From Malacoraja senta (lineage: Eukaryota): a stretch of 64,000 bases of DNA. Below the pieces are notes generated by a model. It searched no databases and was not told the origin of the DNA. It was given only the letters and a program-made list of their open reading frames with translations. Positions 17,381 through 42,865 of the stretch are shown here, piece after piece. How positions within the stretch are numbered: the stretch's first letter is position 1; every line of letters starts with the position of its first letter. The position numbers and the translations under genes are program-made. Location of the stretch: contig CM075987.1 of the NCBI GenBank assembly GCA_038087875.1, positions 28,398,001 to 28,462,000 on the forward strand. The letters run 5' to 3'.

Positions 17381-18927
17381 TGCAACTGACCCAGCATTGA
17401 CAGAACCTTGGCAAAATCCAGTCAGATGAAGGGTCTCGATCCAATACGTCACCCATTCCACAATCACAATCACAATCAATTTTATTCATCACATTGCCCA
17501 TAAAGTGCAAGTGAAATGAATTTGCCAGCAGTGGTACAATGATAAAGAACACACAAAAACACACTAAAAATTGAACACAAACATCCACCACAGCATTCAT
17601 CATTGTGGTGGAAGGCACAAAATTTGGCCAGACCTCTTCCAGAGATGCTGCCTGACCTGCTGAATTACTCCAGCATTTTGTGCATCTTATTCTGAAAAGT
17701 TAGTGAAATGTATGAGTAAAATCGTATTTACTGCAAATCTGTGGATTTGAACGCAGAATAACTGTTTCATCAACTGCCATTAAGTAAAAAGAACTTTGAA
17801 ATAACTAGTTGTAAAACACTTTAATATAATGCAAAGCATGCTCTTGAATCCATTGGAAATATGTATTTGATTTCGGTGAGACAGGCGGCTCTCACGGTCT
17901 CTTAGTCTGTGTCAACATTCCTGGCCTTTGGGTGCTTTTGAATGAGCTGTCTGTCAGGCTGACAAAAAAGAACAATTCATTTAGTCAATTTTCACTCTAA
18001 TTATGATTTCAGAGTCATTTTCTTTTCTTGCTGTAGTGTTCAAGCAAAGACAAATGCTAAAAATTAGGTTTGAAATTTAGTCTATTTGAGCTAATCTAAA
18101 TCAAAATAGTGTAAAATGCATTTTTATGTCAGTATTTTGTTGGCTTAGCAAAATATTGCATGTAAATAAAAGGATTCCAATCAGCACTTTAACCCAAAGT
18201 GAATCACATTATTTTCCAATTAAATATTTTCAAATTCCCACGTGATTTTCCCACCAATGCTGGATGTTGCTCAATTATAATCTCACTATTTTAGAATTTA
18301 CTGAAAAATGAAAAGTAACTGAAATGGTTACCTAATCTCCAAAGTTAGTGACTCAGCGCGTGCAACATTACACTGAGACTAGCATGGACATGATGGAGAG
18401 ACCATGGACAGGCTATTCTGTCCAGGCACAGATCACTTTCCATGAGCTCAGCAGCAAATGTAGAGCACTTTTAAGGAGGTTAACATTTAAAAAATCTAAC
18501 CATGATAATATAACATTTAATATCTTTAAGGACATGGCAAGGCCATAGATGTCTACACAGACTTCAGCAAGGCCTTGGTTCTGGTTCTGCATGTTCGGCT
18601 ACCCTGGAAGTTTAGTTCCCATGGGATCCAGGGAGAGCCAGCCAACTGGATTGAGAAACAAGGAACTGCAGATGCAGGTTGACAAAAACAGATGCAGGTT
18701 TTTTGTTTTCAGTTTTTTAAAATAAGAATGCGGCTGCGTGCGTCTTGTGCAAATGATCAAAGAACAAGCTGAGGTAGATCGCAGGGTGAATGGGGAAATT
18801 AAAGAGGTGAGAAAGTTCCTAGTTTGAGACTGGGTTGAATGAATTTGAATGGAAAACCAAAACTGATATCTGGAACTTTGAAATAATATCAGCCTACTTG
18901 GCACTACTCAGAAAGCCAGCACATCAC

Positions 18928-19070
18928 CTCTGCTGAAACACCCTTGGGATTAGTGGTACAGCTGTCTGCAGGCTGGCGTTTAGCTTTGATCTTGCACATT
19001 CAACAACCTTGCTGGCCATGATCTCATCCATTGATTTTCCAGGGAATAGGTGCGTTAGAAGAGGAATAAT
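18928..19070 (-). CDS. TTC16: TTC16 exon (post-TPR)
   Basis: [50 protein letters not shown] acceptor. The 3' boundary (GTGATG donor) is less certain. Confidence 0.8.
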
Positions 19071-22000: not shown

Positions 22001-25000
22001 TTACCTCCCACCTTCAGATCAATAGGACCAAGACTCCGGAGGTACATGCAATTGGCAGTCTTTGGGTTTATGCTAATTGCCTGAGATATCTCTTGATGTT
22101 TGAAATGACCAATTTATATCATAACATTAGGCAGCGCAGAGCTGAGCATGAATGTGTTAATGTAGACATAGAATGTCAGGCAGATGATATTGTGCCACCC
22201 ACTTTGTGACTTTCCATTGTTCTAACATCCAAATAATATTGTTTCCTTTACAACTCTGAACACTTCTAGTAAATCTCCCCTAATTTTGTGCAATCTAATG
22301 TAACGAGCCCCACCTCACAATGGTATCAACTCAATCAAATGTGAACCTCTGTCTCACTTGGAAGGACTGCTGGGCTCCCTGGATGGAGGTGAGGGAGGAG
22401 GTATCGGAGCAGGTGTTACATCGTCTGCAGTTGCAGGGGAAAATACCTGGGGAGGGGGTGAGGGAGGAGGTAGAGGGGCAGGTGTTACATCACCTGCAGT
22501 TCCAGGTGAGACAGGGGTTCACGTGCACCTTCTCTAACCTCATCTGCTGAAACCGGTGTTCCCAATGTGGCTGCCTATATATCGATGAGACGCCATTGCC
22601 AGAGTGAGGCCACACGCAATCTGGAGGAACAGCACCACATATTCCGGTTTGGTAGCTTACAACCCAATGGTATGAACATTCATGAATTCTGCTGTTCAGC
22701 CAATCCATGCTTGTATCTTGCCTCAAATACCATGGTCTCTTATCTCTTAAAGGCTTTCTGAAAATCTAACAACATCCACTGACTCTCCTTTGTCTATCTT
22801 GCTACTTATATCCTCAAAAACGCCAACAAATTTGTCAGCAAGGTCACCCTTTCACAAAACCATACTGACTTTGGTCAATTTTATCATCTGTTTCCAGGTA
22901 CCCCCAAAATCTCATCCTTAATAATGGACTCTTCACTCCAACAGGAACATGCATCATTCTTTTAAAAGTATCCCACTTTCCAGACTTCCTTTGCCCATTT
23001 GCTACTTGACTTGTTGAGTATTCCCAGCATTGTCTTTTTTTTTGAAAAAAATCAAATTACTTGCAAGTGGATAAGAAAAGTTTTACACATAAATGTCAGG
23101 GTGGCACAACAGATGGTGGAGCTACCGCCTCACTACTCTAGCAACCCAGGTTCAATCCTGACCTCTGGTTCTGTCTGTGTGGAGTTTGTACGTTCTTCTT
23201 GTGACTGCCCACATCCCAAAGCTTCTGGGTTAGTAACTGTCAGCAGGTGGGTTACTGGTAGAGTTGTGAACTGATACGGCGTTTTCCTTCTGTATAACTA
23301 TATGATGAAAGCCACATTCTTTCCTTGACTCGATAAGGCAGGCACACCCCTGGCACAAACACGTACCATTAACACAAATGTTAGAAATACATGTACTCTT
23401 ACCCCCTCGGTTAATGTACAACCCTTTTTCCTGCTTCTCTTCCTTAATACTCTGGTTTAAGAGAAGGATTGCCTCCTCATAAAAGCCTTTGTGGTAGCAG
23501 TGCACTGCAAAGTCATTGTAGGTGAGAAGGAGCTGCCTCTGGGTCTCCAGGTAGGTCTCACTTTGCTTCATGTTGCTGACTTTATTTAAGACGTGGAGGT
23601 AGTCATCAATGGCTGCATTAAAATTCTTGCGTCTTCTGAATACGGTCCCCCTGAAAATGTGGAGGAAAATGAAGACTAAGTGAAGGTATTAGAATGTAAA
23701 AGAATAAATAATCAACAATGAGTGTTCAAATTAAAGTGGGATTGGGATTTGCAGGATCTTGCTCACTATTCTATGTTACAAGACCCTTGGATTCATAAAT
23801 CTAATTCCCATCGGAATATTCATACAGAGTGCTGAACTCCCATAATTTCCACAAGTTTGCAGAGATAATAAAATAACAAAAACACATTGTTACAACAAAA
23901 TGGATAAAGTTCCTGAAATACTCAGAAGATCAGGCAGCATCTCTGGAGAATATGGATAGGTGACGCTTCACATCAAGACCCTTCTTCAGGCTCTGATAAC
24001 CTTTCGATGACTTTCCATTAGAACCTTTCATTTGATGCCATAAGAATGTATTGTATGCAAATTTGATATCATTTGAAGTGCTGCATTAAAACGTGGACCT
24101 CAGACAGAGCCAGGAGCAACCCAACCTGCCAGTCCTTTCCAAATCAATAAAATGGGATGATGGAGGACTGCGGTGAAGGAATAATTTTGGTCTTTGGTTT
24201 TTCCTCCAGCACTTTTGTACTATTGCCCATTTTCAGTTCTGAATTAATTGGGTCAGCATGGGCAAGCTAGGCTAAAGGGCCCGTTTCCATGCTGTATGAC
24301 TCTGTGACTCTAACTGAAGTCTTGAATATGCTATGCTGGAAAATGTTGCTTGTGCTTTGATTTGATGTCCATTATTTAATGATTCACTGTGGAATGGATC
24401 AGGAAGGTCATGGACAGTGTTTGTGTGTGTGTGTGTGTGAAAAAACATATTAGAATTAGAATGCTGTTTATTGTCATTTAAACATACAATGTTCAAACAA
24501 AATTACATTCCTGCAGTCATAACAGCAAAACACACAATTAACAACAATCCACACAACCATCCATCACAGTGAATCGCCAAACACCTCCTCACTGTGATGG
24601 AAGGCAAAAGTCTTATCTCTTCCCTGTTCTTTATTCTTATTCTGGCAAGTCGTGTGTGTGTGTGTGTGTGTGTGTTCCGGTTGGAGGCCGCCAGCTCCAC
24701 GATGTTAGGCCCCAACAACAACGGAGACTCGACAGGGAAAAGGTCGTGTCCCTGTGCAGGGAAGAGATTAAAAAGTTTTCCGCCCCGCCCCCCACATATA
24801 CACAACTAAAAATAAAATAAAACTAAAACCAAAAACATACACCCTAACAGGACAAAATGAAAGAAGACAGACGGACTGCAGTCGAACCGCTGCCACACTC
24901 TAATATATATGTGTGTGTGTGTACCTGTGAGCGTGTGTGTGTGTGTGTACCTGTGGGTATGTTATATGTGTATATATATACACACACACATATATATACA

Positions 25001-28000
25001 TATACATACACGTATATATATATACACACACATATATACATATATATACACACATATATAGATACTCAAAAAACATATATGTGCGTGTACCTGTGTGTGC
25101 GTGTACCTGTGATTATGTGTGTATGTATATATACATATACTCAAAAAAATTGTGTGTGTACCTGTGAGTATGTGTGTATGTATATATACATATACTCAAA
25201 AAACATATATGTGTGTGTGTACCTGTGAGTATGTGTATATATACACACTGAACTTTCTCTCGTTTATCATATTGTTTGCAGTGTACTGTGTTTACATATT
25301 CTGTTGTGCTGCAGCAAGTAAGAATTTCATTGTTCTACCTGGGGCATATGACAATAAAACACTCTTGACCCTTGAACTTCCCACGGGCAATATGGGCAAT
25401 ATCACTGGTTGCTTCCTAATGTGGAGAACTTTTACACCCCCGATTCCCATTCCCTCACCCTGCTTCAAGTTGTGATGAGTTAGAAGAATGAAAGGTATCA
25501 TTAATTATTAATAATTATTAAGCTGCAAGCACTGTGGGTTGTTCTTTACATGCAGAGAAACAGAGAATTGTAGAGGAGAAAAAAGATTTGAGAAAAAGGA
25601 ATCTGAGCACACAATCATTCAATACCAGCTGACGGGAGTAAAGGGATCAAAAGGTCTAATGAAGTGTCCGTCTTCATCTCTACAGAGGGGAAGGCAGTCG
25701 GGGCAAATTAAACATAGAAGGAAGCTAGACTTCAATTGTGCAGACTTTGCGCAAAATCTGACATTTGATTCCTCAACACAAGTTACATGAACTAGCTCTT
25801 GTGTATGAATTACAGCAGATGGTCGATTGAGTCAGTTAGAATGCTAAACGGGATTGAAATGGAGCAAAACTGTGTGAATCAAGAATGGAGGGGATATACG
25901 TGATCAGGAGGATATTCAGCTTCTCAAACTCTGCCTCTCATCAGAATTGTGGCTGATCCATTCACCAACTACTCTAGCTCAGGGATGCCCTGGTGCGCTG
26001 AATGAAAAAAAAGTTCGGTCTCAATCTATGTGCAGATTGCTCTGTCACTACTGCCCTTAATGAGAATTACAGATTTCCTTTACGTGAAAAATTGTTCCCT
26101 GATTTCCCTCCTTTAGTTGGAAGTGCAGAAGTCAATCAGTGGTAGTTTTTGAAGCGTCCATCCTTTGTCCATGGTCACTGCTGTCGTGTTGCCAAGGAAC
26201 ATAGCAAAATATATTACAATCACTAATAAGTGATACCTGCAAAAAAATGTTGTGTTAGAGAAATAACACCCTTCAATCATTGGACATCATGGCCCAAATC
26301 ATCAACTAATTAGACTAATCATCTCCAGATTTTTCATAACCGGTCACTGTGGACACAATCTGAGCCTCATGGATAAAGCCACAGGAGGCTGCTTCACCAA
26401 AGTGGACATAGGCGGAGTAGTGCTTGAGTTAAAAATTGTAAGTTTGTTGAAAGTGTCAAATTAGGACAAGAAAGCAAATTACAGTAATTGATGGAAAATG
26501 GCTTTGCCTTCATAACATTTACAGCAGATTAAAATGATGTAGTTAATGCACATGTAAGCAGTGGATCATAGGGAAACATCAGTATTTTTATTTGTAACAG
26601 AAAATTAAATTAGGAAATAAACATTTCTCTTCAAGCCACTTAAATGCTTCACCTTCTTGGTATTTATCTAATTGACCTCTTATGATGGATGCAATAGTCT
26701 ATCGTTAAATCTGAGGGAACTGTAGATGATGGTTTACCAAGGAAAGCCACAAGATACTGGAGTAGCTCAGCGGATCACACAGCATCTCTGGAAAACATAT
26801 AGGTTTTGGGTCAGGACCCTTTTTCAGTTTAAACTTCAGCATGCAACAAATTATTTATGCTAGAAATAATGGCTTGACATAACCTGAAAATTAACTCTGA
26901 TGTTCTGAAACATGAACTCTGTTCTCCTCTCTCTCCCCACTGTTGCTGTCTGACCTGCTGAATCTTTCTAGAACTCTTGATCCTGTTTCAGACTTACAGC
27001 ATCTGCAGCTTTTGGATTTTATCTTATCTGCAGTTTGTTGACTTTACCTGAAGATGTAATAGCCAAGTTCATTGGGATTGTTGTCTATTGCCTGATTAAT
27101 GCAATGGAGTGCACCATTCATATTGCCTTGCAGAGCCTTATTCACTGCACCAGCCTTAGCCTCTTCAGCTCTCTGCACCAGTGTCTGCATTAACGACACA
27201 GCCTCTTGATGGGAGGGATCCATGGTCAGAGCACGACTGACATCCTGGTAACAACTAACTACCTGTTGATGAGACGGTGAGAGATAAAATGAACAAATAT
27301 AGCACATGCCCCATGCTGAGAATCACCTCAGGAATTGGTCAACCTCTCCATTCATCTATCCTGCTTCCACATGGCTTCATATCCTTGGCTAGCAAAATTA
27401 ATTAATCTCAGATTTTAAATAATTAATTGAGCTAATATCAATTGCTTTATGTGAGAGAAAGCCAGATTTCTACCAGTAACAGGCCAGAGGCTGAGTATTT
27501 GTGATTCACATCCCCAGAATCTTCCCCTGGCTGCATAGCTGATCAGGAATGTGATGGAATACCAATACTCACCCACGTTACTTCAACAAACCTGTGATTG
27601 ACCTGTTTAATGAACATGGAAAATTAACCATCTTCAAGTTTCCCCTCAACTTGTACTTTATCCTGACTTGGGAAATACGCTCCCTCTTTCAAAGTCGTTG
27701 CGTGTACATCTAGGAATGAGCTACCCAACACATGTTGCAGGCTTTTTCACTAGATGGGACTAGCAACTTCTCAATGCCAATTCGAGTTGACAATAAACAC
27801 CCAGATGTCACAAGACAAGAACAAAATCCCTATTCCATGCCATTTCATCTTCCTGCATTGCTCTCTATTTCCTTTGAATATTACAGACCTTTTAAAGTTG
27901 TTGAACTTTTATTATTGGGAGATTGATGAAAAAAATTCAAAGGATAACATTCAAAATCTAGATTAATTGGGGAATCCGACAATCCTAATATGAGTTTCGA

Positions 28001-31000
28001 TTGAAGTAACAGTAACCATCCAATTGCACAACTTATTTCTTTAAAGCAAAAATTAAATGTTATAACCATAAAACACAAAGATATGAACCATGAAGAAGTA
28101 ATGAGCTGTCTTACATTTGAAAAGTGGTCATGCAGTCTTGCTCGGAGGATGTAGAGCTCTGGATTAGAAGTCACAACCTCAAGTTGCTTGGTGACATATT
28201 GGAGGCAATCTTCAAGTCTTCCTAATGCAAGCAAGGTGGCAATGCTGGGAAACAATTTTCAACTTGCAATTAATAACATTTGCTGTGCTTGTTTTTTGCT
28301 CTACTTCAACACATGGCTAGCATTGAGCTTGTAAACTGTACTCAACGAGGTTTGTGGAGGACATTTAATCACACAGTGTATCTTGTAGATAATTGAATGG
28401 TATTGCAGATGTGAATATCAATCTGCATCTGTTGATTTATGGATTTCTCTCCTGCAAATCAGTAGATATTGAAAAGTGAAAGGTCGATGTACTTTGGCCA
28501 GCCAAGGTTATTGAGAGTGTTGGAATACCATCAACGCTACGGAACCTTATTGTGAGAATTTTCTGTCTGAAGATTGGGACATATAAGATGAGGAGGACAT
28601 TACAGAGAGAATATTGTGTATTTGAGGCCACATGTTCAATGGGAAAAACCTGCAATCTCCTCAAGGCAAGTAATTCTTGACAGTAAGCATTCAGGAAGTG
28701 TGTGTTGTCTGAACCTTGTTACAGGAAGTGTGTGGTGTAGTCTGAACCTTGTTACACTGAAAGCTCAACACTGTACCTCTGTACACATGAAAATGATAAA
28801 CTAAACTAGCCCAACCATGACAACAACAAATTGACATACATTACAGCAATGTCTTTGACTCTTAGCTGCCCTCTGAAGTAACCTAGCAAGCTACAGTGTG
28901 TGAGTAAGAGGGTCTTGGCATTAAATTCTGACCTGCCAGCACTAACCACCAGCTTTCTGCTCCTGCCAAAGGCAAGTAGCAAATCATGTTCATAACTTCA
29001 TGTCACAGGAGCAGCATGAGGCCATTCGGCCCATCAAGTCTACTCCACCATTTAATCTTGGAAACATAAAAACATAGAAAATAGGTGCAGGAGTAGGCCA
29101 TTCGGCCCTTCGAGCATTCAATATGATCATGGCTGATCATCCAACTCAGTATCCTGTACCTGCCTTCTCTCCATACCCCCTGATCCCTTCAGCCACAAGG
29201 GCCACATATAACTCCCTCTTAAATATAGCCAATGAACTGGCCTCAACTACCTTCTGTGGCAGAGAATTCCAGAGATTCACCACTCTCTGTGTGAAAAATG
29301 TTTTTCTCATCTCGGTCCTAAAAGATTTCCCCTTTATCCTTTAACTGTGACCCCTTGTCCTGGACTTCCCCAACATCGGGAACAATCTTCCTGCATCTAG
29401 CCTGTCCAACCCCTTAAGAATTTTGTAAGTTTCTATAAGATCCCCCCTCAATCTTCCAAATTCCAGCGAGTACAAGCCGAGTCTATCTAGTATTTCTTCA
29501 TATGAAAGTCCTGCCATCCCAGGAATCAGTCTGGTGAACCTTCTCTGTATTCCCTCTATGGCAAGAATGTCTTTCCTCAGATTTGGAGACCAAAACTGTA
29601 CGTAATACTCCAGGTGTGGTCTCACCAAGACCCTGTACAACTGCAGTAGAACCTCCCTGCTCCTATACTCAAATCCTTTAGCTATGAATGCTAACATACC
29701 ATTCGCTTTCTTCACTGCCTGCTGCACCTGCATGCCTACTTTCAATGACTGGTGTACCATGACACCCAGGTCTCGTTGCATCTTCCCTTTTCCCAATCGG
29801 CCACCATTCAGATAATAGTCTACTTTCCTGTTTTTGCCACCAAAGTGGATCACCTCACATTTATCAACATTATACTGCATCTGCCATGCGTTTTCCCACT
29901 CACCCAGCCTATCCAAGTCACCTTGCAGCCTCCTAGCATCCTCCTCACAGCTAACACTGCCCCCCAACTTCGTGTCATCCGCAAACTTGGAGATGTTGCA
30001 TTCAATTCCCTCGTCCAAATCATTAATCTATATTGTAAATAGCTGGGGTCCCAGCACTGAGCCTTTAAGTACCCCACTAGTCACTGCCTGCCATTCTGAA
30101 AAGGACCCGTTTACTCCTACTCTTTGCTTCCTGTCTGCCAGCCAGTTCTCTATCCACATCAATACTGAACCCCCAATACCGTGTGCTTTAAGTTTGTATA
30201 CTAATCTCCTATGTGGGACCTTGTCGAAAGCTTTCTGAAAGTCCAGATATAACACATTCACTGGTTCTCCCTTATCCACTCTACTAGTTACATCCTCGAA
30301 AAATTCTATAAGATTCGTCAGACATGATTTACTTTTTGTAAATCCATGCTGACTTTGTCCAATGATTTCACCACTTTCCAAATGTGCTGCTATCCCATCT
30401 TTAATAACTGACTCTAGCAGTTTCCCCACTACCGATGTTAGACTAACTGGTCTGTAATTCCCCGTTTTCTCTCTCCCTTCCTTTTTCAAAAAGTGGGGTT
30501 ACATTAGCTACCCTCCAATCCTCAGGAACTACTCCAGAATCTAAGGAGTTTTGAAAAATTATCACTAATGCCTCCACTATTTCTGGGCTACTTCCTTAAG
30601 TACTCTGGGATGCAGCCTATCTGGCCCTGGGGATTTATCGGCCTTAAATCCATTCAATTTACCTAACACCACTTCCCGGCTAACCTGGATTTCACTCAGT
30701 TCCTCCATCTCATTTGACCCGCGGTCCCCTGCTATTTCCGGCAGATTATTTATGTCTTCCTTAGTGAAGACAGAACCAAAGTAGTTATTCAATTGGTCTG
30801 CCATGTCCTTGTTCCCCATGACCAATTCACCTGTTTCTGACTGTAAGGGACCTACATTTGTTTTAACTAATCTTTTTCTCTTCACATATCTATAAAAACG
30901 TTTGCAGTCAGTTTTTATGTTCCCTGCCAGTTTTCTTTCATAATCTATTTTCCCTTTGCTAATTAAACCCTTTGTCCTCCTCTGCTGGACTCTGAATTTC

Positions 31001-34000
31001 TCCCAGTCCTCTGGTAGGCTGCTTTTTCTGGCTAATTTGTACGCTTCATCTTTTGTTTTGATACTATCCCTGATTTCCCTTGTTATCCACGGATGCACTA
31101 CCTTCCCTGATTTATTCTTTTGCCAAACTGGGATGAACAATTGTTGTAGTTCATCCATGCAGTCTTTAAATGCCTTCCATTGCATATCCACCGTCAACCC
31201 TTTAAGAATCAATTGCCAGTCAATCTGGGCCAATTCACGTCTCATACCCTCAAAGTTACCTTTCTTTAAGTTCAGAACCCTTGTTTCTGAATTAACAATG
31301 TCACTCTCCATCCTAATGAAGAACTCAACCATATTATGGTCACTCTTGCCCAAGGGGCCACGCACAACAAGACTGCTAACTAACCCTTCCTCATTACTCA
31401 ATACCCAGTCTAGAATAGCCTGCTCTCTCGTTGGTTCCTCTACGTTGGTTTAGAAAACTATCCCGCATACATTCCAAGAAGTCCTCTTCCTCAGCACCAC
31501 TGCCAATTTGATTCACCCAATCTATATGTAGATTGAAGTCACCCATTATAACTGTTTTACCTTTGTTGCACGCATTTCTAATTTCCTGTTTGATGCCATC
31601 CCCAACTTCACTACTACTGCTAGATGGCCTGTACACAACACCCACCAGCGTTTTCTGCCCCTTAGTGTTTCGCAGCTCTACCCATACCGATTCCACATGC
31701 TCCAAGCTAATGTCCTTCCTTTCCACTGCGTTAATCTCCTCTCTAACTAGCAACGCTACCCCACCTCCTTTTCCTTTCTGTCTATTCCTCCTGAATATTG
31801 AATATCCCTGGATGTTCAGCTTCCAGCCTTGGTCACCCTGGAGCCATGTCTCCGTGATCCCAACTATATCATAATCATTAATAGCTATCTGCACATTCAA
31901 CTCATCCACCTTATTACGAATGCTCCTTGCATTGAGACACAAAGCCTTCAGGCTTGTCTTTACAACGCTCTTACCCCTTATACAATTATGTTGAAAAGTG
32001 GCCCTTTTTGATTTTTGCCCTGGATTTGTCTGCCTGCCACTTTTACTTTTCACCTTGCTACCTATTGCTACAACCCTCATTTTACACCCCTCTGTTTCTC
32101 TGCTCACACATTTAAGAAACCCACCACCTCTTATTCTCTGTTTATTATTTTTTTCTTCTTTCCCCCCTACATGTTGGGTCTGAGTGCTTCCCTTCTCTGC
32201 CTCCTGCCTCACACACTGTCTACTAGCTTTCTCTATTTGAGTCCCTCCCCCCAACCATTCTAGTTTAAAGTCACCACAGTAGCCTTTGCAAATCTCCCCG
32301 CCAGGATATTGGTCCCCCTCGGGTTCAAGTGCAACCCGTCCTTTTTGTACAGGTCGCACCTTCCACAAAAGAGGTCCCAATGATCCAGAAACTTGAATCA
32401 CTGCCCTCTGCACCAGTCCTTCAGCCACGCATTTATCCTCCACCTCGCTCCATTCCTACTCTCACTGTCGCGTGGCACAGGCAGTAATCCCGAGATTGTT
32501 ACCTTTGCGGTCCTTCTCCTTAACTCTCCTCCTAACTCCCTAAATTCTCCTTTCAGGACCTTTTCTCTTTTTCTACCTATGTCATTGGTACCTATATGTA
32601 CCACGACATCGGGCTCCTCTCCCTCCCATTTCAGGATATCTTGGACACGTTCAGACACATCCCAGACTCTGGCACCAGGGAGGCAAACTATTGTCAAGCT
32701 GGAAATGTTACAGAGAAGATTTATGAGGATGTTGCCAGGACTCAAGTGTCTGAGCTATAGGGAGAGGTTGAGTCAGCTGGGACTCTATTCCTTGGAGCGC
32801 AGGAGGATGAGGGGTGATTTTATAGAGGTGTATAAAATCATGAGAGTAATAGATCGGGTAGACGCACAGAGTTGTGGAATCGAGGACCAGAGGACATAGA
32901 TTCAAGGTGAAGGGGAAAAGATTTAATAGGAATCTGAGCGGTGACTTTTTCATACAAAGGTGTTGGGTGTATGGAATGAGCTGCCAGATGAGATAGTTGA
33001 AGCAGGGACTATACAAATGTTTAAGAAACAGACAGATACATGGATTGGACAGGTTTGGAGGGATATGGGCCAAACACAGGCAGGTGGGACGAGTGTAGCA
33101 GGGAAATGTTGGGCCGTAGGGCCTGTTTCCACTCATTCCACTGTATGACTGTATAATGAATCACCTGCGCATGTGGTAATGTTGATTTGCAGGTCTCAGT
33201 TCTGAAGCCAGTGCAAAAATTTCCAAGGCCTCGCCATACATGTTGACTTCAAACAGGTACTGACCCTAAAGAACAAAATCCCGTCACAGCTGGTTAGTGT
33301 CCATTGTGAACCTTGTACACAAAGTGGACAGAAAATCATGCATTTACTTCAGCGTTCCATGCCAACAATGACATTACAACAAAGACTTATAAAGTTGATT
33401 GCAGCAGATTGTTTATGGGCAAAGGGACATCCAGAAAGTGAGAAGTTTTGAAAAGTGTGGTAGTGAGAATTTAAGACATACATGCTCCCGTTAGAATGAA
33501 GGGCAAGGCAGGTAAGGAACCCTGGATGATGAGAGAAAATGAAGGTCTTGTCAGGAAATAGAAGGACTCAGAGGTCGGTGGATGCTGGTTCTCTGGATAC
33601 TTTCAAGAGAGAGCTAGATGGGGCTCTTAAAGATAGCGGAGTCAGGGGATATGGGGAGAAGGCAGGATGGGGTACTGATTGGGGATGATCAGCCATGATC
33701 ACATTGAATGGCGGTGCTGGCTCGAAGGGCCAAATGGCCTACTCCTATACCTATTGTCTATTGACATGTGTCAGGTATAGGCCATTGCAATTGTGTATCC
33801 CTGGAGGACTTTGGAGGGTTGTGGGGGCAGGTGATAGATCTGGAGATAAGATTATCAAAATCCAAATGTATTTTATGTATATTAAAGGACAAAGGTAACT
33901 AGAGAGAAAATAATACCCCTCAGAAACCTAAGTGGTCATCTATGTGTGGAACCACAGGAGATGGGCAAGGCCCTTGATGAATATTTCTCCTGGTTTTACC

Positions 34001-37000
34001 ACCGAGAAAGATATGAAGAGTTATCTGGGCGGCACGGTGGTGTAGCAGCAGGGTTACTGCCTTACAGCACTTGCAGCGCCGGAGACTCGGGTTCAATCTT
34101 GACCACGGTGCTGTCTGTACGGAGCTTGTACGTTCTTCCTGTGACCGCATGGGTTTTTTCCGAGATCTTCAGTTTCCTCCCACACTCCAAAGACGTACAG
34201 GTTTGTAGGTTCATTGGCTTTGGTTTGAATACTTGGTATAAGTGCAAATTGTTCCTAGTGTTTGTAGGCTTGTCTTAATGTGGGGATTGCTGGTCGGTGC
34301 AGATTCAATGCGCCGAAGGGCCTGTTTCTGCACTATATCTCTAAACTAAACTAAAACTGAACTAGGGAACTTTGGACATTTAATGGCGATGTCTTAAGGA
34401 CATTCCATATTGCAAATGAGGAGGTGCTTAACGTTGTAAGACATGAAGGAAGATAAATCTCCTGGGCCTGATCAGATGTATCCAAGGACACCGTGGGAAA
34501 CTGGATAAGAAATTGCAGGAGCCTAGCTGAGATATATGAATCATCATTAGACAAGGGGGGGGGGGGGGGTGCTGGAAGACTGGAGGGTGACTATTGTTTG
34601 TGCTTCTATTTAAGAAGGGCTAAAAAGGAAAACCTGGGAACTGTAAGTAAGCCTAATATCTGCGGTAGGAAAGTTACTGGTGATGATTCTCAGAGAGAAG
34701 ATATACATGCATTTAGATAGACAGAGGTTGATTATGCATAGTCAGTATGGTTTTGTATGTGGGAGATTGTATCTCACAAATTCTATTATGTTTTTTGAAT
34801 AAGAAACCAAGAAAGCTGATATAGGCAGGGTTGTAGACATAGTCTATTTGGATTTCAGCAAGTGTTTTGATATGTTTTCACATGTTAGGCTAGTCTGGAT
34901 TGCAAGGGATCCTGGGAGAGATAGCCGACTGGATATGAAATTCATATCAGTGAAGAAAGCGAATGGCATGTTGGCCTTCATAACAAGGAGAGTTGAGTAT
35001 AGGAGCAAAGAGGTACTTCTACAGTTGTACAGGGCCCTAGTGAGACCACACCTGGAGTATTGTGTGCAGGTTTGGTCTCCAAATTTGAGGAAGGACATTC
35101 TTGCTATTGAGGGAGTGCAGCATAGGTTTACAAGGTTAATTCCCGGGATGGCGGGACTGTCATATGCTGAGAGAATGGAGCAGCTGGGTTTGTACACTCT
35201 GGAGTTTAGAAGGATGAGAGGGAATCTCATTGAAACATGTAAGACCATTAAGGGTTTGGACACATTAGAGGCAGAAAACATGTTCCCGATGTTGGGGGAG
35301 TCCAGAACCAGGGGCCACAATTTAAGAATAACGGGGAAGCCATTTAAGGGGGTATGTTATAGACTTACATTAGGTCTTCCTCCAGCCTCGACTTCTCCAA
35401 GGAAAACAGCCCCAACCTCTCCAACCTGTTCATATAACCGAGGTTTCTGAGCCTAGGAATCATTCTTGCATATCTTGTCCTCAGACCCATCACATCCTTT
35501 TGATCATAAGGGGCAGGAGTTGAACACAATAATTCAGTTGAAGCTGGGGCAGGACTGAATCCTAACATGTAGCACTGATTAGATTATACAGTGTGTGCAA
35601 AAAGTCCATTCAAATGAACAGATCTATGCTCGCATGATAGAATTTTCTTTCATCCTATTCCATCTAATTTTTACTCTAATTTAAACAGCAATTAAACAGA
35701 GCATACACAAAAGAAAGACAAACATACTTGGATGTACAAGGTGTGGCCTATCTGGGTCACAACTGCATCATCTGAAGGGTCCAAGTTGCTGGCCAACCTG
35801 TGGTTGAGGACAGAAGACTGGAAATCGCCAAACATCAGATATGCCTCGGCCCTTCTCAGATAAAACTCTTTCTGCAATGTAAGGCAATTAAAACACGATT
35901 TTCTTCAACCAATCGGTATTTTGCCAGACTTACAATGAACATTATATGTATTTAGTTTAGTTTAGTTTACGGATACAGCATGGAAACAGGCCCTTCGGCC
36001 CACTGAGTCTGCGTTGACCAGTGATCCCTGCACACTAGCACTATCCTACACACACTAGGGACAATTTACAATTTTACAATTTTACAAACCTGCACGTCTT
36101 CGGTGTGTGGGAGGAAACCGAAGCAGCTGGCGAAAACCCACGCAGTCACATTAATAACGTATAAACTCCCTACAGACAGCATCCGTAATCAGGATGGAAC
36201 CCGGGTCTCTGGCACTAAGGCAGCAACTCCACTGCTGTGCCACTCCATGTATGTCAAATCAAAATAAGGAAAATACAGACAAATATATCTGTACTGCAGT
36301 TATTCATGCAAGTCCATAACTCCCTGAAAGTAGCAACACAAATAGAGTGGTAAAGAAGGCATATGATATGGCGAAGGCATATGATTTGGCGAAGGCATAT
36401 GATATGCTTGCTTTCATTGTTCGGGGCATTGAGTATAACAATTAGGAAGTCATGATGCAGCTTTACAAGACTTTGGTTAGGACACATTTGGAGTATTGCG
36501 TGCAGTTCTGGTCATCCCTTTACAGGAAGGATGTGAAGGCTTTGGAAAGGAGGTTTACCAGAATGATGACTGGGCTAGGGACTATTAGCTACAGGGAGAG
36601 GTTGGAAAGAGCTGGATTGTTTTCTCTGTAATTCTGGAGTTTGAGGGGAGATCTGATAGTCAAGTCAAGTCATATTTATTTATATAGCACATTTAAAAAA
36701 CAACTCTCGTTGGCTAAAGTGCTTTACATTTGTTATAAGAATAGCACAAACAAAACAAACTACATACATATATACATGTAGTCCTCACTCAAAGTACGTC
36801 AGGAAAGGCTTGGGAGTATAGATAAGTCTTTAGTCTTGACTTAAAAGAGTCGATGGAGGGGGCAGTTCTGATGGGAAGGGGGATGCTGTTCCACAGTCTA
36901 GGGGCTGCAACCGCAAAGGCGCGGTCGCCCCTGAGCTTATGCCTAGACCGTGGGATATTCAGCAACCCCAAGTCGGCCGATCTGAGGGGCCTGGAGGTGG

Positions 37001-39570
37001 AGTGGTGGGTGAGAAGACTTTTTATGTAGGTGGGGGCAAGCCCATTGAGGGCTTTGTAGACATGGAGGAGGATCTTGAAGTTTATACGGAACCGCACATG
37101 GAGCCAGTGGAGAGAAGCCAGGATCGGGGTGATGTGGTCCCTTTTTCGGGTGCCCGTCAGGAGTCTCGCTGTGCCGTTTTGGACCAGTTGCAGGCGGGAC
37201 AGGGAAGATTGGCTGATGCCAGTGTAAAGGGAGTTGCAGTAATCTAGGCGGGAGGAGATGAATGTGTGGATGATCTTTTCGAGGTCATCAAACTGGAGGA
37301 ATTGTTTTATTTTAGCTATCGTCCGAAGCTGAAAGAAGCTAGCTTTTACCACGGCATTGACTTGTTTGTCAAATTTCAGTGCTGAGTCAAATATCACGCC
37401 AAGGTTTTTGACGTGAGGTTTGAGTAGTGGGGTAAGGCTTCCAAGGCTGCCTGCTATCATTTTGATTGAGTCCGAGGGGCCGAGAAGGATGACCTCAGAC
37501 TTACTCTCGTTTAGTTGGAGGAAGTTCTGGGCCATCCAACACTTTATATCCTCGAGGCAGTGGGTAAGGTTAAACAGATTTGATTGGTTTTTGGGCTTCA
37601 GGGGGAGATAGAGTTGTGTATCGTCTGTGTAGCAATGAAAGGAAATGCCTGCCTTTCAATGACTTGGCCTAAGGGGAGCATATACAGGGAGAAGAGAATG
37701 GGGCCAAGGATGGAACCTTGTGGAACCCCACAACAGAGATTAGCTGGGGAGGAGAAAGAGTTGCCTATGTTAGTCGAGAAACTCCGATAGAAGCATATAA
37801 ATTTATGAGAGGCATTGATAAGGTAGACAGTCAGAACCTTTGTCCTAGAAAGGAAATAACACATACTAGAGGGCATAGCTTTAAGGTGAGAGGGGCAAAA
37901 TTTAAAGAATGTATACGAGGCAAATGTTTTACACAGAGTGGTGAGAGCCTGGAAGGGGTGGTGGAGGAGGCAGCTACAATAGTGGCATTTAGGAGGCTTT
38001 TAGATAGGCACATGGAGGCACAGTTGGAGTATTGTGTCCAGTTTTGGTCACCCTGTTATAGGAAAGATGTTGTTATGCTGGAAAGTGTGCAGAGAAGATT
38101 TACGAGGATGTTGCCAGGACCCGAGCTATAGGGAAAAGTTGGGCAAGCTAGGACTGTATTTCCTGGAGCATAGGAGGATGAGAGGCTCAGTTCAGAGGGA
38201 AATGGGCCAAACGTAAGCAGGTAGGTTAAGTGTAGATGGGGCACCTTTGCCGGCAGGGGCAAGCTGGGCCGAAGGGCCTCTTTGGGCTGCACGACTCTAT
38301 GACTGACTCCATGAACATCTTCTTTGTATTGCAATAGAGCCTGTGACCTTGACTGCCACTGCACCAAGGAGAAACTAATCTTACCTGCTGAGGATCCAGA
38401 GTAAGGGCTTTATTGAATGAAATTACTGCTTCCTCCAAAAGACCCCTGTTCAGGAGAATCTTGCCTCGTTCATAGCTGTAGAAAAGATGTGAACAGTAAA
38501 TCAATGTCTGAGATACAGGACCTTAACTATAGAGTGCGTTTTTGTGTAAACTATATCACAGTACGGTGGTATTTGTAAGAACAGTGTTGATAGATGACCT
38601 GTACATAAAGAACGTGCAGAAAGGGAAGCCATGATATTGAAGGGTTTCGGCCCAAAACGTTGCCTATTTCCTTCGCTCCATAGATGCTGCTGCACCCGCT
38701 GTGTTTCTCCAGCATTTTTGTGTACCCATGATATTTCTAATGGATTCTGAAGTCTCCTGGAACAGGTAAGTGATTCCCCCTGGTGGTCAAAGAAGAGCAT
38801 TGTCGAATACTCCCCCTAGGGCTTTTCCTCTTTAGTTTCGTTTAGTTTAGAGATACTGGGCGGAAACAGACCCTTCGGCCCACTGAGTCCGCACCAACCA
38901 GCGCCCACCGTACATTAACACTATCCTACACATTTAGGGACAATTTACATTGCATGCAACTTAGGGGAGGTTCTGACGGGGAGCAGCGGGTGGAATGCAG
39001 GGGCTTTGGCAATAGTCTGTATGCCTCGTGGTCATTAAACTTAAACTACTTGTTGTTATTTCCACAACTTCATACATCTGGTGCTGTAAAGCAGCAACTC
39101 TACCACTGTGCTTTTGTCTTTTATGAGCATCGGGTGCCATGTGACTCAGTTTCTCCAGTTCCATTCTTTTTGTTAGTCACAATAACATACTGTTGACGTA
39201 CCATGCTCTCTGAACTAGAGATCGCTCTTCTCCACTGAAACTCTAAAATGTGACCCATATAAATCAATGCCACAGCAATAATATTTTATATTTGCTATGC
39301 GATCATATCACTGATCACAGTGAAGAACAAACAAATTTATTTTACGTCTAAAGCCTTCTCTTACAGCATCCATGTCTGCTGTTATACTCACTGTTCTTTA
39401 GCCCGATCATTTATAATATCCGACATAACATAATTTCTCTTCTCTATGGTGTCCAGAGAAAAAATCTTACTGGATCCAAATAGATTTTGTCGTGATTCCT
39501 CTGTGGCCGCAGCCAGTTGTTCTTCAGATAATGCTGTGGGAAACACTCCTGCTTCCAACATGATTGTATC
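18928..39570 (-). CDS. TTC16: Tetratricopeptide repeat protein 16 (gene span of 10 resolved coding exons; C-terminal exons unresolved)
   Basis: Exons join in frame with GT-AG sites. Peptides such as [23 protein letters not shown]....[14 protein letters not shown] and LFPG.S..E match recalled human TTC16. Confidence 0.93.
19498..19770 (+). mobile_element. V-SINE (HE1-like)
   Basis: Same head, core and tail. Confidence 0.8.
19971..20350 (+). mobile_element. CR1 3' end
   Basis: RTRGHSL...[13 protein letters not shown] and a (TTCTATGT)n tail. Confidence 0.9.
20377..20542 (-). CDS. TTC16: TTC16 exon (TPR)
   Basis: [33 protein letters not shown]...[12 protein letters not shown]; 166 nt, phase 2 to 0. 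Confidence 0.92.
21009..21150 (-). CDS. TTC16: TTC16 exon (TPR)
   Basis: (D)[46 protein letters not shown](R); 142 nt, phase 1 to 2. Confidence 0.92.
22340..22685. mobile_element. Penelope-like GIY-YIG region fragments in inverted arrangement
   Basis: [15 protein letters not shown] and [28 protein letters not shown] on +; the preceding segment is its reverse complement. Confidence 0.7.
23403..23650 (-). CDS. TTC16: TTC16 exon (TPR)
   Basis: [18 protein letters not shown]...[46 protein letters not shown]; 248 nt, phase 2 to 1. Confidence 0.95.
24900..25250. repeat. (TA)/(CA)/(TG) compound microsatellite
   Basis: Direct reading. Confidence 0.9.
27048..27262 (-). CDS. TTC16: TTC16 exon (TPR)
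   Basis: [21 protein letters not shown]...[14 protein letters not shown](R); 215 nt, phase 0 to 2. Confidence 0.92.
28115..28244 (-). CDS. TTC16: TTC16 exon (TPR)
   Basis: [43 protein letters not shown]; 130 nt, phase 2 to 0. Confidence 0.92.
29061..32690 (-). mobile_element. Young CR1 LINE (part of esterase ORF1 plus frameshifted EN/RT ORF2) in a TTC16 intron
   Basis: ORF1 SGNH-esterase motifs ([20 protein letters not shown]), APE endonuclease (LNARSI, ITETWL, GDFN, SDH), RT motifs and 3' tail. Confidence 0.93.
32691..33150 (+). mobile_element. CR1 3' fragment
   Basis: [11 protein letters not shown]...[14 protein letters not shown]. Confidence 0.8.
33165..33265 (-). CDS. TTC16: TTC16 exon (TPR)
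   Basis: [33 protein letters not shown]; 101 nt, phase 0 to 2. Not in the ORF track; found by reading. Confidence 0.9.
34027..34360 (+). mobile_element. tRNA-derived V-SINE (HE1-like)
   Basis: tRNA-like A/B-box head, central GTTTCCTCCCACACTCCAAAGAC, CR1-derived GCCGAAGGGCCTGTTTC tail and (CTAAA)n. Confidence 0.85.
34950..35350 (+). mobile_element. CR1 fragment within an older CR1
   Basis: [10 protein letters not shown]...[13 protein letters not shown]. Confidence 0.8.
35728..35871 (-). CDS. TTC16: TTC16 exon (TPR)
   Basis: [48 protein letters not shown]; 144 nt, phase 0 to 0. Confidence 0.92.
35950..36245 (-). mobile_element. V-SINE (HE1-like)
   Basis: Reverse-complement copy with (TTTAG)n tail. 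Confidence 0.8.
36659..37783 (-). mobile_element. L2 LINE 3' fragment inserted in a CR1
   Basis: [45 protein letters not shown]; short-repeat tail. Confidence 0.9.
38385..38475 (-). CDS. TTC16: TTC16 exon (TPR)
   Basis: [30 protein letters not shown]; 91 nt, phase 2 to 0, GTAAG donor. Confidence 0.92.
39392..39570 (-). CDS. TTC16: TTC16 exon (N-terminal; in-frame ATG at 39561)
   Basis: [37 protein letters not shown]...DRAKE(H); CAG acceptor, GTGAGT donor; 179 nt, ends phase 2. Confidence 0.85.
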
Positions 39571-40854
39571 CTGTAGAAAGAGAACATTGAATCATCAAGA
39601 GCCTTTGCCAGCCGAGTGTAACAGATCATCGAGAGGGCAATCTTGAGTCATTGAAACAATTGACAAAGGTTTTTTTGTGTACAATGTTGCAGACCAGGGC
39701 AATTGTAGGGTTGGATTGTGCTAAGAAAGAGGAAGGGTTTTTTATTGATTGTTACTTTTCAATAAATAACCAGGCAATTATGACATTGGAAAAGTAAAGA
39801 CTTCCATTGGCATTAAAATATAAATGGATTCCCAAAGCTGAAATGCAGCATTGTGTGTAGCTGCCTATGGGAATGTAGTGCATGGGCCTTGTCTAGCAGG
39901 TAGTCACTTGTCATCACCTGCTGCTGCCTGGGTTTACCTGAACTAATAAACACACATCCTCCCCACACTCCACAGGGCCTGAAATAAAATGAATGGAAAA
40001 TGCTGGAAAGACTCAGCAGGTCAGGTCAGCATTTCTGAGAAAATAAATAGTCAACATTTCACATCAGAGTTAGAGAATGAAGAGGAGGGAGGGATTATCT
40101 CTGATAGGGTGAAACTAAATGAGGTAATGTGATAAGCTGAAAAATAAATTTAACCTAAAAAAATAATTTAGAGGTTTTTGTTTATCCCCTCTTACCTCAA
40201 CCAAATTTTGGCACTGATCTTCTTCCCTCTTTTCCTCCTCCTTGGGTTCCTCCATGATTCTATGGGTCTTCTAGATTCTTTGTAACTTGCCGTTCATTGC
40301 AAGGAAGGTGTGCATATCTTGTAATAAAACCTTGACCACTAAAAAAAAGGAATTCTAAATTTCCATTGTTGATGTGTCAATGTGTCCATGACGCTCCTCT
40401 AGTATCTTTGCTTGGGCCTTCAATCAAAGATTGTGCCTTCCTGTTCTGGATTATCCCACAAGTTGAAATTCAGTCAATTACCCAAGTTTATATATTTTTC
40501 AGCAACACCCTCTCATTAGAATTAACCCTAACGCTTCTGAGGGTGTGCATTCAACACAAACAAAGGTATTTTCAAAATGGGGGTGGGGGGGAGAGGCAGA
40601 ATGGAGCTGGCGGCCAACAGGCTGATGATACAGGAGCTTACCTGACTTTTTCCTGCCCCACCTCTCTCCCAGCTTTCTCCCCACCACCACAATTAACCCG
40701 AAGAAGGGTTCCCTGACCATCTGAGTTACTCCAGCACTTTGTGCTCCCCCACCACGATGCCCGCGCTGTTTTCAAGGGTGGGGTCTGAACGCTGACATTT
40801 CTCGGCGACAACGTAATGCACGGAACCGTCTTTAATAAATCACACCCTTTACCC

Positions 40855-41170
40855 ACCTACACCTTTGAGCGGGAATAGAACTGGCCACAGCGACCGCGAC
40901 CATTGACTTGTTGTTGCCGCCGCCAACTTCCGGGTCGACTTGTATCCGTCCTGTTGCTATGGGTAACACGCGTCATGTTGCTATGGGGAACCGGCGTCAT
41001 GTTGCTATGGGTAACACGCGTCCTGTTGCTATGGGGAACACGCGTCCTGTTGCTATGGGTAACCGGCGTCTTGTTGCTATGGGTAACACGCGTCCTGTTG
41101 CTATGGGTGACCTGTTGCTATGTGGAACCGGCGTCATGTTGCTATGGATGACCTGTTGCTATGGGGAACC
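40855..41170 (-). promoter_or_regulatory. Putative TTC16 promoter/first exon with tandem RFX X-box array
   Basis: CpG-rich patch 1.3 kb upstream of the first resolved exon. Contains donor-like sites near 40855, an ATG at 40903, an ETS-like ACTTCCGG and ten GTTGCTATG(G/T)NNRAC motifs. Confidence 0.7.
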
Positions 41171-41504
41171 AGCATTCAGGATTCAGGATGGCCAATGCAA
41201 AAAAAAAGACCCAGAGTGCTGGAGTAACTCAGCGGGTCAGGCAGGATCTGCGGAGAACATGGATAGGTGATGTTCAGTCCTAAGGTCATAAGGTCATAAG
41301 TAATAGGTGTAGAATTAGGCCATTCGGCCCGTCAAGTCCTCTCCGTCATTCAATCATGGCTGATCTATCTCCCTCCTAACCCCATTCAGGTGATACAGGT
41401 GAGGGAGTGAGTGGTAGATGGGTGGAGTAAGTGACAAACACTAGAGATGAAAAGGTGACAACGTGTTGGATAAATATAGGAGTGAAACGTAACCTAGAGG
41501 GGGG

Positions 41505-42320
41505 GTGTGAAGGTGATACTAGGAGACTGCAAGGTGACTTGGATAGGCTGGGTGAGTGGGCAAATGTTTGGCAGATGCAGTATAATGTGGATAAATGTGA
41601 GGTTATCCACTTTGGTGGCAAAAACAGGAAGGCAGACTATTATCTAAATGGTGGCTGATTAGGAAATGGGGAGATGCAGCGAGACCTGGGTGTCATGGTA
41701 CACCAGTCATTGAAAGTAGGCATGCAGGTGCAGCAGGCAGTGAAGAAAGCGAATGGTATGTTAGCTTTCATAGCAAAAGGATTTGAGTATAGGAGCAGGG
41801 AAGTTCTACTGCAGTTGTACAGGGTCTTGGTGAGACCACACCTGGAGTATTGCGTACAGTTTTGGTCTCCAAATCTGAGGAAGGACATTATAGCCATAGA
41901 GGGAGTGCAGAGAAGGTTCACCAGACTGATTCCTGGGATGTCAGGACTTTCATATGAAGAAAGACTGGATAGACTTGGCTTATACTCGCTAGAATTTAGG
42001 AGATTGAGAGGGGATCTTATAGAAACGTACAAAATTCTTATGGGGTTGGACAGGCTAGATGCAGGAAGATTGTTCCCGATGTTGGGGAAGTCCAGGACAA
42101 GGGGTCACAGCTTAAGGATAAGGGGGAAATCCTTTAAGACCGAGATGAGAAAAATCTTTTTCACACAGAGAGTGGTGAATCTCTGGAACTCTCTGCCACA
42201 GAGGGTAGTTGAGGCCAGTTCATTGGCTATATTTAAGAGGGAGTTAGATGTGGCCCTTGTGGCTAAAGGGATCAGGGGGTATGGAGAGAAGGCAGGTACG
42301 GGATACTGAGTTGGATACTG
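41505..42320 (+). mobile_element. CR1 3' fragment (young)
   Basis: 211-aa ORF of the CR1 ORF2 C-terminus. Confidence 0.9.
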
Positions 42321-42497
42321 AGATGGGAGATGATCTTACTGAGGAAGGGAAACCTCCCTCTTTCCCTGCACCCCCACCCTGGCATGCACTCTTCTCCCAC
42401 CACCCCAGTCACTCTGCTCCTCGCACTTCCTCTGTACGCTCATCTCCCATCTGGATTACAAGGGATCCTGGGAGAGATAGCTGACTGAATATGAAAT

Positions 42498-42865
42498 TCT
42501 CTCTCTCTACCTCTCTCTCCCCCTCCTCCCCCTCTCTCTCTCTCTCCCCCCCTCCTCCCCTCTCTCTCTCCCCCCTCCTCCCCTCTCTCTCTCTCCCCTC
42601 TATCCCTCTCTCCCCCCTCCTCCCCTCTCTCTCTCTCCCCCTCCTCCCCTCTCTCCCTCCTCCTCCCCCCTCTCTCTCTCCCCCCCTCCTCCCCTCTCTC
42701 CCTCTCTCCCCCTCCCCTCTCTCTCTCCCCCTCCTCCCCTCTCTCTCTCACTCCCCCCTCCTCCCCTCTCTCTCTCTCTCTCTCTCCCCCTCCTCCCCTC
42801 TCTCTCTCTCTCCCCCCCTCCTCTCTCTCTCCCTCTCTCTCCCCCCTCTCTCTCTTTCCTCCTTT
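42498..42865. repeat. CT-rich low-complexity repeat
   Basis: Direct reading. Confidence 0.9.

What the first reader, a model, noticed from the sequence alone, without database searches (positions are those of the whole stretch)
40913..41170. Tandem array of ten RFX X-box motifs at the TTC16 promoter
Seen: GTTGCTATG(G/T)NNRAC (best copies GTTGCTATGGGTAAC) starts at 40953, 40977, 41001, 41025, 41049, 41073, 41097, 41114, 41138 and 41155, with a 24-bp period for the first seven. A further GTTGCCGCCGCCAAC lies at 40913 and an ETS-like ACTTCCGG at ~40926. Spacers carry GGCGTCA (CRE half-site-like). Established: the RFX X-box is about GTNRCC-N0-3-RGYAAC and typically occurs once or twice near the TSS of ciliary/spermatid genes. 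Inference: a minisatellite has amplified a functional X-box into a homotypic cluster, a VNTR that could tune TTC16 expression.
Basis: partly seen in the sequence, partly recalled or inferred. Interest (0 to 1): 0.72.

Follow-up and report, generated by a model that had tools for sequence, protein, structure and literature searches.

The report
Repeated RFX sites before skate TTC16
A skate has copied the binding site of the cilia-and-sperm gene regulator RFX ten times in a row just upstream of the gene TTC16, and two related species also carry a repeat there; promoter repeats like this are a known kind, and whether the extra copies change gene activity is untested.

Summary
The array is real: ten 15-bp boxes at 40953-41169 (periods 24 and 17 bp). 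All ten keep one strong RFX half-site; five fit the full X-box consensus with a 3-nt spacer. [quoted passage not shown] An RNA-like run of a relative shows an untranslated exon further upstream, so the start site is nearer, but it is not mapped. Mouse Ttc16 falls in Rfx2 and Rfx3 knockouts and has an RFX1 promoter peak. Contigs show a single locus, and an array at the same site in two related species, so it is old and not an assembly artefact. Copy-number variation is not shown: the one same-species run also fits ten copies. CRE-like linkers occur in only 2-3 of 9 linkers. The relative's RNA-like run covers the array at low depth, most likely a divergent transcript. Best reading: an ancestral X-box amplified by tandem duplication into an RFX platform; the neutral-extra-copies reading stays open. 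New member of a known kind.

The parts
40953..41169 (.). Tandem array of ten 15-bp X-box-like sites (strong half-site, 3-nt spacer, variable half-site); periods 24 and 17 bp; higher-order 72-bp and 41-bp duplications
   Evidence: strict consensus in the copies at 40953, 41001, 41049, 41073, 41097
40913..40927 (+). Single degenerate X-box-like element outside the array: one perfect half-site, second half-site off consensus
40926..40933 (-). ETS-like core (CCGGAAGT on the TTC16 strand); motif name recalled, binding untested
   Evidence: only CTTCCGG in the window
40740..41170 (.). CpG-rich patch, likely promoter: CpG observed/expected 1.13 (40740-40952) and 0.91 (array) against 0.33 for the window
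40890..40901 (.). 6-bp tandem duplication; the same-species run X1 lacks 6 letters here at its full depth (29.3 of 29.3, listed at 40887)
40642..40757 (-). Candidate untranslated first exon (inferred): ends at the best-scoring donor between the acceptor and the array (GT at 40641); lies in a fragment of a high-copy repeat; its 5' end is unknown
   Evidence: score 7.2; next best 3.9; frequencies recalled; depth of 1e4-1e5 shows the repeat
40196..40338 (-). TTC16 exon holding the start codon (ATG at 40255); splice acceptor with pyrimidine tract at 40339-40340
   Evidence: (first 20 residues match P0002 at 19 of 20), record 17 of X21
39392..39570 (-). Next TTC16 exon, joined to the previous one in an RNA-like contig of organism B
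17895..40338 (-). TTC16 gene body (12 coding exons found; TPR protein)
40950..41232 (.). Stretch covered in the RNA-like run of organism B at about 8-11x (intron contig 2.8x, TTC16 mRNA contig 37x); no cover in 40758-40949; direction unknown
41190..42310 (+). High-copy short repeat followed by a LINE-like fragment on the distal side of the array
   Evidence: depth 1e6-1e7 at 41206-41260; ORF 41659-42309 resembles the LINE ORFs elsewhere in the window; no Pfam hit

Best explanation
One ancestral X-box at the distal edge of the TTC16 promoter was multiplied, with its linker, by slippage or unequal exchange before the split of the three species examined. The array now works as a multi-site platform for RFX dimers (RFX2/RFX3 in spermatids and motile-ciliated cells, RFX1 elsewhere). 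Each unit offers one strong half-site and half of them a full 15-bp site; the 24-bp period (2.3 helical turns) leaves room for neighbouring dimers on different faces of the helix. High local occupancy helps to keep the CpG-rich patch open and activates TTC16 from a start site somewhere between about 40670 and 40950, and also a weaker divergent RNA that runs through the array. Shown: the array, the gene, the consensus match, single locus, presence in relatives, an upstream untranslated exon. Known from mouse: RFX dependence of Ttc16. Inferred: binding in skate (about 0.75), the position of the start site, the direction of the array RNA (about 0.6), and that extra copies raise or sharpen output (about 0.4).
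For: Unit fits the published ideal, an inverted GTTGCC half-site with a 0-3-nt spacer, and RFX also binds half-sites (PMC2797782 passages); 15-bp boxes are functional in C. elegans (PMC3245922 results). A random unit rarely makes such a site: 219 of 200000 shuffled units and 35 of 63677 other window 24-mers; 1 of 29 tandem loci in the window holds one. Mouse Ttc16 is down in Rfx3-/- (logFC -1.43) and Rfx2-/- (-1.22) ependymal cells and has an RFX1 peak 170 bp from its start (PMC7498320 Tables S1, S6, S8). Functional X-boxes lie mostly within 500 bp of the start site (PMC5838959 passages); the array is 311-513 bp from the candidate exon end and inside the CpG-rich patch. Organism B carries at least 210 letters of array in single-depth contigs tied to both flanks, organism D the same distal units and flank, at 4-6.5% intron divergence. 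Of 11 substitution events among the units that I could read, none hits the strong half-site (P about 0.04, post hoc); in B both distal boxes fit the strict consensus.
Against: No binding or expression test in skate. The 3-nt spacer is the edge of the tolerated range, and 5 of 10 boxes miss the strict consensus. In the held text of the mouse tables Ttc16 is listed for an RFX1 promoter peak only; the RFX3 peak is 5.7 kb away and no RFX2 peak is listed (file cut when stored). The window is rich in tandem repeats (29 loci, 8.7% of bases) and the PHPT1-type promoter also carries a duplicated motif unit, so promoter motifs get duplicated here without needing selection. The half-site statistic uses related copies and only 40 of 134 listed differences; with the window's units alone P is 0.1. 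The proximal promoter is not more conserved than introns (5.9-7.6% against 3.8-6.5%). A second X-box can repress (PMC3245922).
Confidence: 0.52

Rival explanations
1. Neutral passengers: one X-box (the first unit, or the 40913 element) does the work and the other copies are an ordinary minisatellite that happened to start on a promoter motif; output is saturated at one or two sites.
For: 29 tandem loci cover 8.7% of the window; a second promoter in the window has a 30-bp unit in 2.3 copies; half of the boxes are degenerate; RFX-bound regions average about two motifs (PMC11888390 passage); persistence across species 4-6% apart is usual for minisatellites (own knowledge).
Against: The strong half-site is unchanged in all 14 units read, while spacer, weak half-site and linker vary; weak statistics.
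Confidence: 0.3
2. The array dampens or restricts TTC16: weak boxes soak up RFX, RFX1 represses in non-ciliated tissue, or the dense cluster recruits MORC3-type silencing and acts as a switch.
For: Distal weak X-box represses in C. elegans F25B4.2, with a 'sponge' model; RFX1/3 repress MAP1A through two boxes (PMC3245922). Homotypic tandem clusters recruit MORC3 (PMC13373173 passages).
Against: MORC3 targets carry up to 61 motifs of SPI, AP-1 or SP/KLF type and RFX is not mentioned in that paper's main text. The array is CpG-rich rather than depleted and is covered in an RNA-like run in which TTC16 mRNA is present.
Confidence: 0.1
3. The array is mainly part of a transcript (an upstream TTC16 exon or a divergent non-coding RNA), and the promoter proper is the 40760-40950 stretch with the ETS-like and 40913 elements.
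For: The RNA-like run X21 covers the whole array evenly at about 8x and its distal flank at 11x, above the 2.8x intron contig, and stops at the proximal edge.
Against: The depth is far below that of the mRNA contig (37x); no usable minus-strand donor lies at the array's proximal end in the window; the strand does not fold better than shuffles as DNA (z 0.28), has no Rfam match, and the one open frame through it has no Pfam match. One run, RNA status guessed, contigs give no strand. Being transcribed does not exclude RFX binding.
Confidence: 0.07
4. Assembly artefact or dispersed satellite unrelated to the gene.
For: None found.
Against: X1 contigs tile the array and join both flanks; their ends match those predicted for a ten-copy allele with one changed letter. 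Summed depth over the array is 39-63 against about 29 for one locus and 6e5 for the neighbouring short repeat. Two related species have it at the same site.
Confidence: 0.01

Closest known systems
Promoter/enhancer tandem repeats made of transcription-factor sites: IFNB1-MRE with 45 PU.1 sites (PMC13373173, abstract and passages), MAD1L1 PU.1 eMotif (PMC11701250, passages), MNS16A with GATA1 sites (PMC5438627, search listing and start of abstract only)
   Same: A 20-50-bp tandem unit carries one factor's motif and forms a homotypic cluster near a gene; like the MRE, the cluster is found at the same place in related species.
   Different: The factor is RFX; the unit is almost nothing but the site; ten copies, not dozens; copy-number polymorphism, binding and effect are not shown here.
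RFX target promoters with more than one X-box: C. elegans F25B4.2, yeast RNR genes, human MAP1A (PMC3245922: abstract, introduction, first part of results, discussion)
   Same: Several boxes of unequal quality, including 15-bp boxes, within a few hundred bases of the gene start.
   Different: Those have 2-3 unrelated boxes; here ten come from one unit by tandem duplication at a fixed period.
Mouse Ttc16 as an RFX-dependent gene (PMC7498320, passages and rows of Tables S1, S6, S8)
   Same: Orthologous gene family; RFX site near the start expected.
   Different: Mouse evidence is a peak, not an array; I could not read the mouse promoter sequence. No divergent PTRH1-type gene was found beyond the skate array, whereas mouse Ptrh1 is listed two rows from Ttc16 in the RFX1 promoter table (head-to-head layout recalled).
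Human expression-linked VNTRs (PMC8024321, passages)
   Same: Tandem repeat within 500 bp of a start site; such repeats are polymorphic in 57% of cases and length correlates positively with expression in 65% of eVNTRs.
   Different: No length variation seen here in the one same-species run.

Membership tests
RFX X-box | Inverted half-sites related to GTTGCC with a 0-3-nt spacer | tested here: met
   5 of 10 strict, 6 of 10 loose, all with a 3-nt spacer; 10 of 10 keep one strong half-site (definition)
RFX X-box | Within about 500 bp of a transcription start site | tested here: inconclusive
   An upstream exon is spliced to 40338 in organism B, but its place and the start site are not mapped; array is 615-830 bp from that acceptor and 311-513 bp from the best candidate donor
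RFX X-box | Gene is RFX-dependent or ciliary | tested here: met
   By orthology only: mouse Ttc16 down in Rfx2-/- and Rfx3-/- cells, RFX1 promoter peak; not tested in skate
RFX X-box | Conserved at the orthologous position | tested here: met
   Present in 2 of 2 related species laid; distant relatives not tested
RFX X-box | Bound by an RFX protein; mutation changes expression | not testable with these tools
   Needs EMSA, ChIP/CUT&RUN or reporter
Minisatellite | Head-to-tail units of 10-60 bp at one locus | tested here: met
   Period 24, 88% matches, plus 17-bp variants; single-locus depth
VNTR | Copy number differs between alleles of one species | tested here: inconclusive
   X1 fits ten copies with the loop contig at 26.5x against 29-32x for its neighbours; one run only, possibly not independent of the window
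Expression-linked VNTR (eVNTR) | Copy number correlates with expression | not testable with these tools
   Needs genotypes and RNA from many individuals
X-box plus CRE composite (MHC II X1-X2 type; RFX3-CREB co-binding, PMC11888390) | A CRE or half-CRE next to each X-box | tested here: not met
   CGTCA in 3 of 9 linkers, no full TGACGTCA
Dispersed satellite or SINE | Many genomic copies | tested here: not met
   Array depth 39-63 against 6e5 for the neighbouring short repeat in X1, of which about 88% was read
MORC3-repressed tandem enhancer | Very large cluster of SPI, AP-1 or SP/KLF motifs that is opened on MORC3 loss | not testable with these tools
   Motif family and size differ; chromatin not testable

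The most novel reading that the evidence does not exclude
Skates fixed a natural X-box concatemer at TTC16: selection has kept the strong half-site in every copy for millions of years while unit number drifts between species, giving a species-specific, high-avidity RFX platform that sets TTC16 dose in sperm and motile cilia and fires a divergent RNA. It would be a natural copy-number series for how RFX site number and the 24-bp spacing translate into output.
Probability: 0.25. Interest if true: 0.62.

Novelty: new member of a known kind. Interest (0 to 1): 0.42.

Why it matters
Tandem repeats that multiply a factor's site are known, but I found no natural RFX X-box concatemer in the papers held (searches; open-access PubMed Central and bioRxiv only). 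How several X-boxes in one promoter combine is an open question: the one in-vivo study read here found antagonism between two boxes (PMC3245922). An array of ten at an RFX-dependent gene, shared by related skates, is a ready test of additivity, saturation or repression. Its reach is limited: one poorly studied gene, a non-model animal, no functional data.

Tried and rejected
Whole-genome search: no genome is held for this window, so copy number elsewhere was judged from contig depth only. Run search: no RNA holder listed on record; 24 runs listed, 4 laid; the 20 others (organisms C, E-J, further B and D runs, X22-X24) were not examined. The joint, loose-end and piece tables were swamped by the short repeat at 41190-41260, so the 30 letters upstream of the acceptor could not be placed. 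X21 has no cover at 40374-40565 and 40758-40949 and X1 none over parts of exon 39392-39570; these blanks prove nothing alone because a filter drops some records. Summed array depth relative to single-locus depth is 5.3 (A), 12.2 (B), 20.1 (D): a hint of longer or more fragmented arrays in B and D, not a copy number. My first guess of a coding first exon at 40890-40855 was dropped when the homologues' N-termini mapped to 40255. A head-to-head coding gene: 108 plus-strand frames of 34 or more codons in 41170-56000 gave only transposase and reverse-transcriptase matches above cut-off; short exons could be missed. Secondary structure (z 0.28), Rfam (2 chance-level hits elsewhere), coding frame through the array (no Pfam match): nothing. 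A two-unit pattern found nothing in metagenome or viral contigs; these collections are not expected to hold skate DNA. The bacterial promoter scan is irrelevant here. No exact copy of the unit's motifs or TTC16 in the supplements of PMC5838959. PMC2913254 (passages) gave no tandem X-boxes. Earlier scan notes: none for this genome or sequence. Supplements of bioRxiv preprints could not be read and the PMC7498320 file is cut, which may hide RFX2/RFX3 peaks at Ttc16.

Full report
Observation. Tandem Repeats Finder gives period 24 with 88% matches, and higher-order periods of 72 and 41, which points to stepwise duplication of blocks. Columns 1-9 and 14-15 of the box are the same in 10 of 10 copies; columns 10-13 vary. 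Read on the minus strand, 5 of 10 boxes fit GTNRCC-N3-RGYAAC and 6 of 10 a looser form. The linker claim is overstated: GGCGTCA in 2 of 9 linkers, CGTCA in 3 of 9. The 40913 element fails the strict consensus. Ten copies are one event multiplied, so the fair chance question is whether a tandem unit would make an X-box: 219 of 200000 shuffled units and 35 of 63677 other 24-mers of the window do, and 1 of the 29 tandem loci of period 10 or more.

The gene. One exon is 96% identical to proteins named TTC16 or TTC16-like in Rhinoraja longicauda and Amblyraja radiata and 72-83% to rays and a shark (7 hits among 52 candidates), so the window is from a skate. Eleven exons map on the minus strand from 39579 to 17895. 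The first 20 residues of P0002 match a frame starting at ATG 40255 at 19 of 20. [quoted passage not shown] No divergent protein-coding gene was found in the next 15 kb; an immunoglobulin-domain gene lies on the same strand from about 55.7 kb.

Where transcription starts. In run X21 (organism B; RNA status is the tool's guess) one 1281-letter contig at depth 37.2 joins 40340-40195 to 39569-39392. It carries 30 letters upstream of base 40338, which follows a pyrimidine tract and AG, and it alone explains the depth of that bin (18.0 expected, 18 seen). So an untranslated exon lies further upstream. Its place was not listed. The best minus-strand donor between the acceptor and the array is at 40641 (score 7.2, next 3.9, frequencies recalled), inside a repeat fragment; X21 shows no cover at 40758-40949. 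The start is thus probably between about 40670 and 40950, which would put the array roughly 0-500 bp upstream, the window in which human X-boxes cluster (PMC5838959 passages). This is inference. The same run covers the array evenly (RNA/DNA ratio 0.29, 0.27, 0.26; about 8x per copy) and its distal flank at 11x, against 2.8x for an intron contig, and stops at the proximal edge. A weak divergent RNA starting near 40950 is the simplest reading; contigs give no strand and this is one run.

Real, single-locus, old. Run X1 (organism A, 0.94 of the words) has contigs 40805-41018, 41006-41090 and 41078-41183 at depths 29.3, 26.5 and 32. A 31-mer graph of the window's allele with one changed letter at 41071 reproduces these ends exactly, and the unchanged allele does not. 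The loop contig at single-locus depth means ten copies on average. X1 also lacks 6 letters near 40887 at full depth, so it is another individual or the window has consensus errors; it may not be independent. No copy-number variation is seen. Array depth (39-63) is far from that of the neighbouring dispersed repeat (6e5). Organism B has contigs running from the proximal flank into the array, two inside it and one from the distal units into the flank, at least 210 letters of array; organism D has the same distal units and flank and a high summed depth over the array. Introns differ by 3.8-6.5%. Among 14 units that I could read, 11 substitution events fall in spacer (3), weak half-site (4) and linker (4), none in the strong half-site (P about 0.04; 0.1 with window units only; post hoc, related copies, 40 of 134 differences shown).

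RFX link. The ideal site is an inverted GTTGCC with a 0-3-nt spacer, affinity falls with departure from it, and RFX can use half-sites (PMC2797782 passages). 15-bp boxes work in C. elegans, where a second box repressed (PMC3245922 abstract, introduction, first part of results, discussion). Mouse Ttc16 is down in Rfx3-/- (logFC -1.43) and Rfx2-/- (-1.22) ependymal cells and has an RFX1 peak 170 bp from its start; the listed RFX3 peak is 5.7 kb away and no RFX2 peak appears in the held, cut file (PMC7498320 tables; passages). RFX3 and CREB co-bind in neurons (PMC11888390 passages), but the half-CRE is in a minority of linkers here.

Mechanism. Most likely (0.52) the array is a multi-site RFX platform at the distal edge of the promoter. 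The 24-bp period is 2.3 turns, about 100 degrees between neighbours, so several dimers could bind without clash and probably without direct contact (inference). The main rival (0.30) is that only one site matters: this window is full of tandem repeats (8.7% of bases), and the PHPT1-type promoter at 3577-3645 has its own duplicated unit. Repression or sponge (0.10), a mainly transcribed role (0.07) and artefact (0.01) follow.

Comparison and verdict. It works like known tandem repeats of factor sites: the PU.1 cluster at IFNB1 (PMC13373173 abstract and passages), the MAD1L1 PU.1 motif (PMC11701250 passages) and promoter eVNTRs in general (PMC8024321 passages). It meets the sequence definition of a minisatellite and, for half of its units, of an X-box; membership of the VNTR and eVNTR classes is unproven. 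Searches turned up no natural X-box concatemer and nothing on the TTC16 promoter, judged from listings and the papers opened; subscription journals are not covered. The scan had no note on this DNA and one on a TATA-box repeat in an algal promoter. Verdict: real, new member of a known kind, interest 0.42.

Noticed in passing
window 3577-3645: [quoted passage not shown] A second promoter motif duplication in the same window.
   Followed up: partly
window 8230-8430: CpG-rich patch with an X-box-like half-site at about 8238 whose flanks resemble the array unit, next to a minus-strand splice donor at about 8268; probably the first exon of another gene; no Pfam match found.
   Followed up: partly
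window 17078-17133: A strict 15-bp X-box (17078) and a near match (17119) in a mildly CpG-rich stretch about 800 bp beyond the last TTC16 coding exon; may be another RFX-controlled promoter or enhancer; gene not identified.
   Followed up: partly
window 55765-60187: Several immunoglobulin-domain exons on the minus strand, upstream of TTC16; resemblance to the CD4/LAG-3-like genes of cartilaginous fish is recalled, not tested.
   Followed up: no
window 45960-46967: Tc1/Sleeping Beauty-type transposase in pieces.
   Followed up: no
window 40640-40757: The best candidate untranslated first exon of TTC16 lies in a fragment of a high-copy repeat, which would be an exapted repeat exon.
   Followed up: partly
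window 41170-56000: No PTRH1-type gene head-to-head with TTC16 was found, unlike the mammalian layout that I recall; a PHPT1-type gene lies downstream instead.
   Followed up: partly
window 40968-41093: Four linkers hold ACGCGT within CACGCG, which resembles class C bHLH (HES) and other CpG-containing sites (recalled); no other ACGCGT in the window.
   Followed up: no
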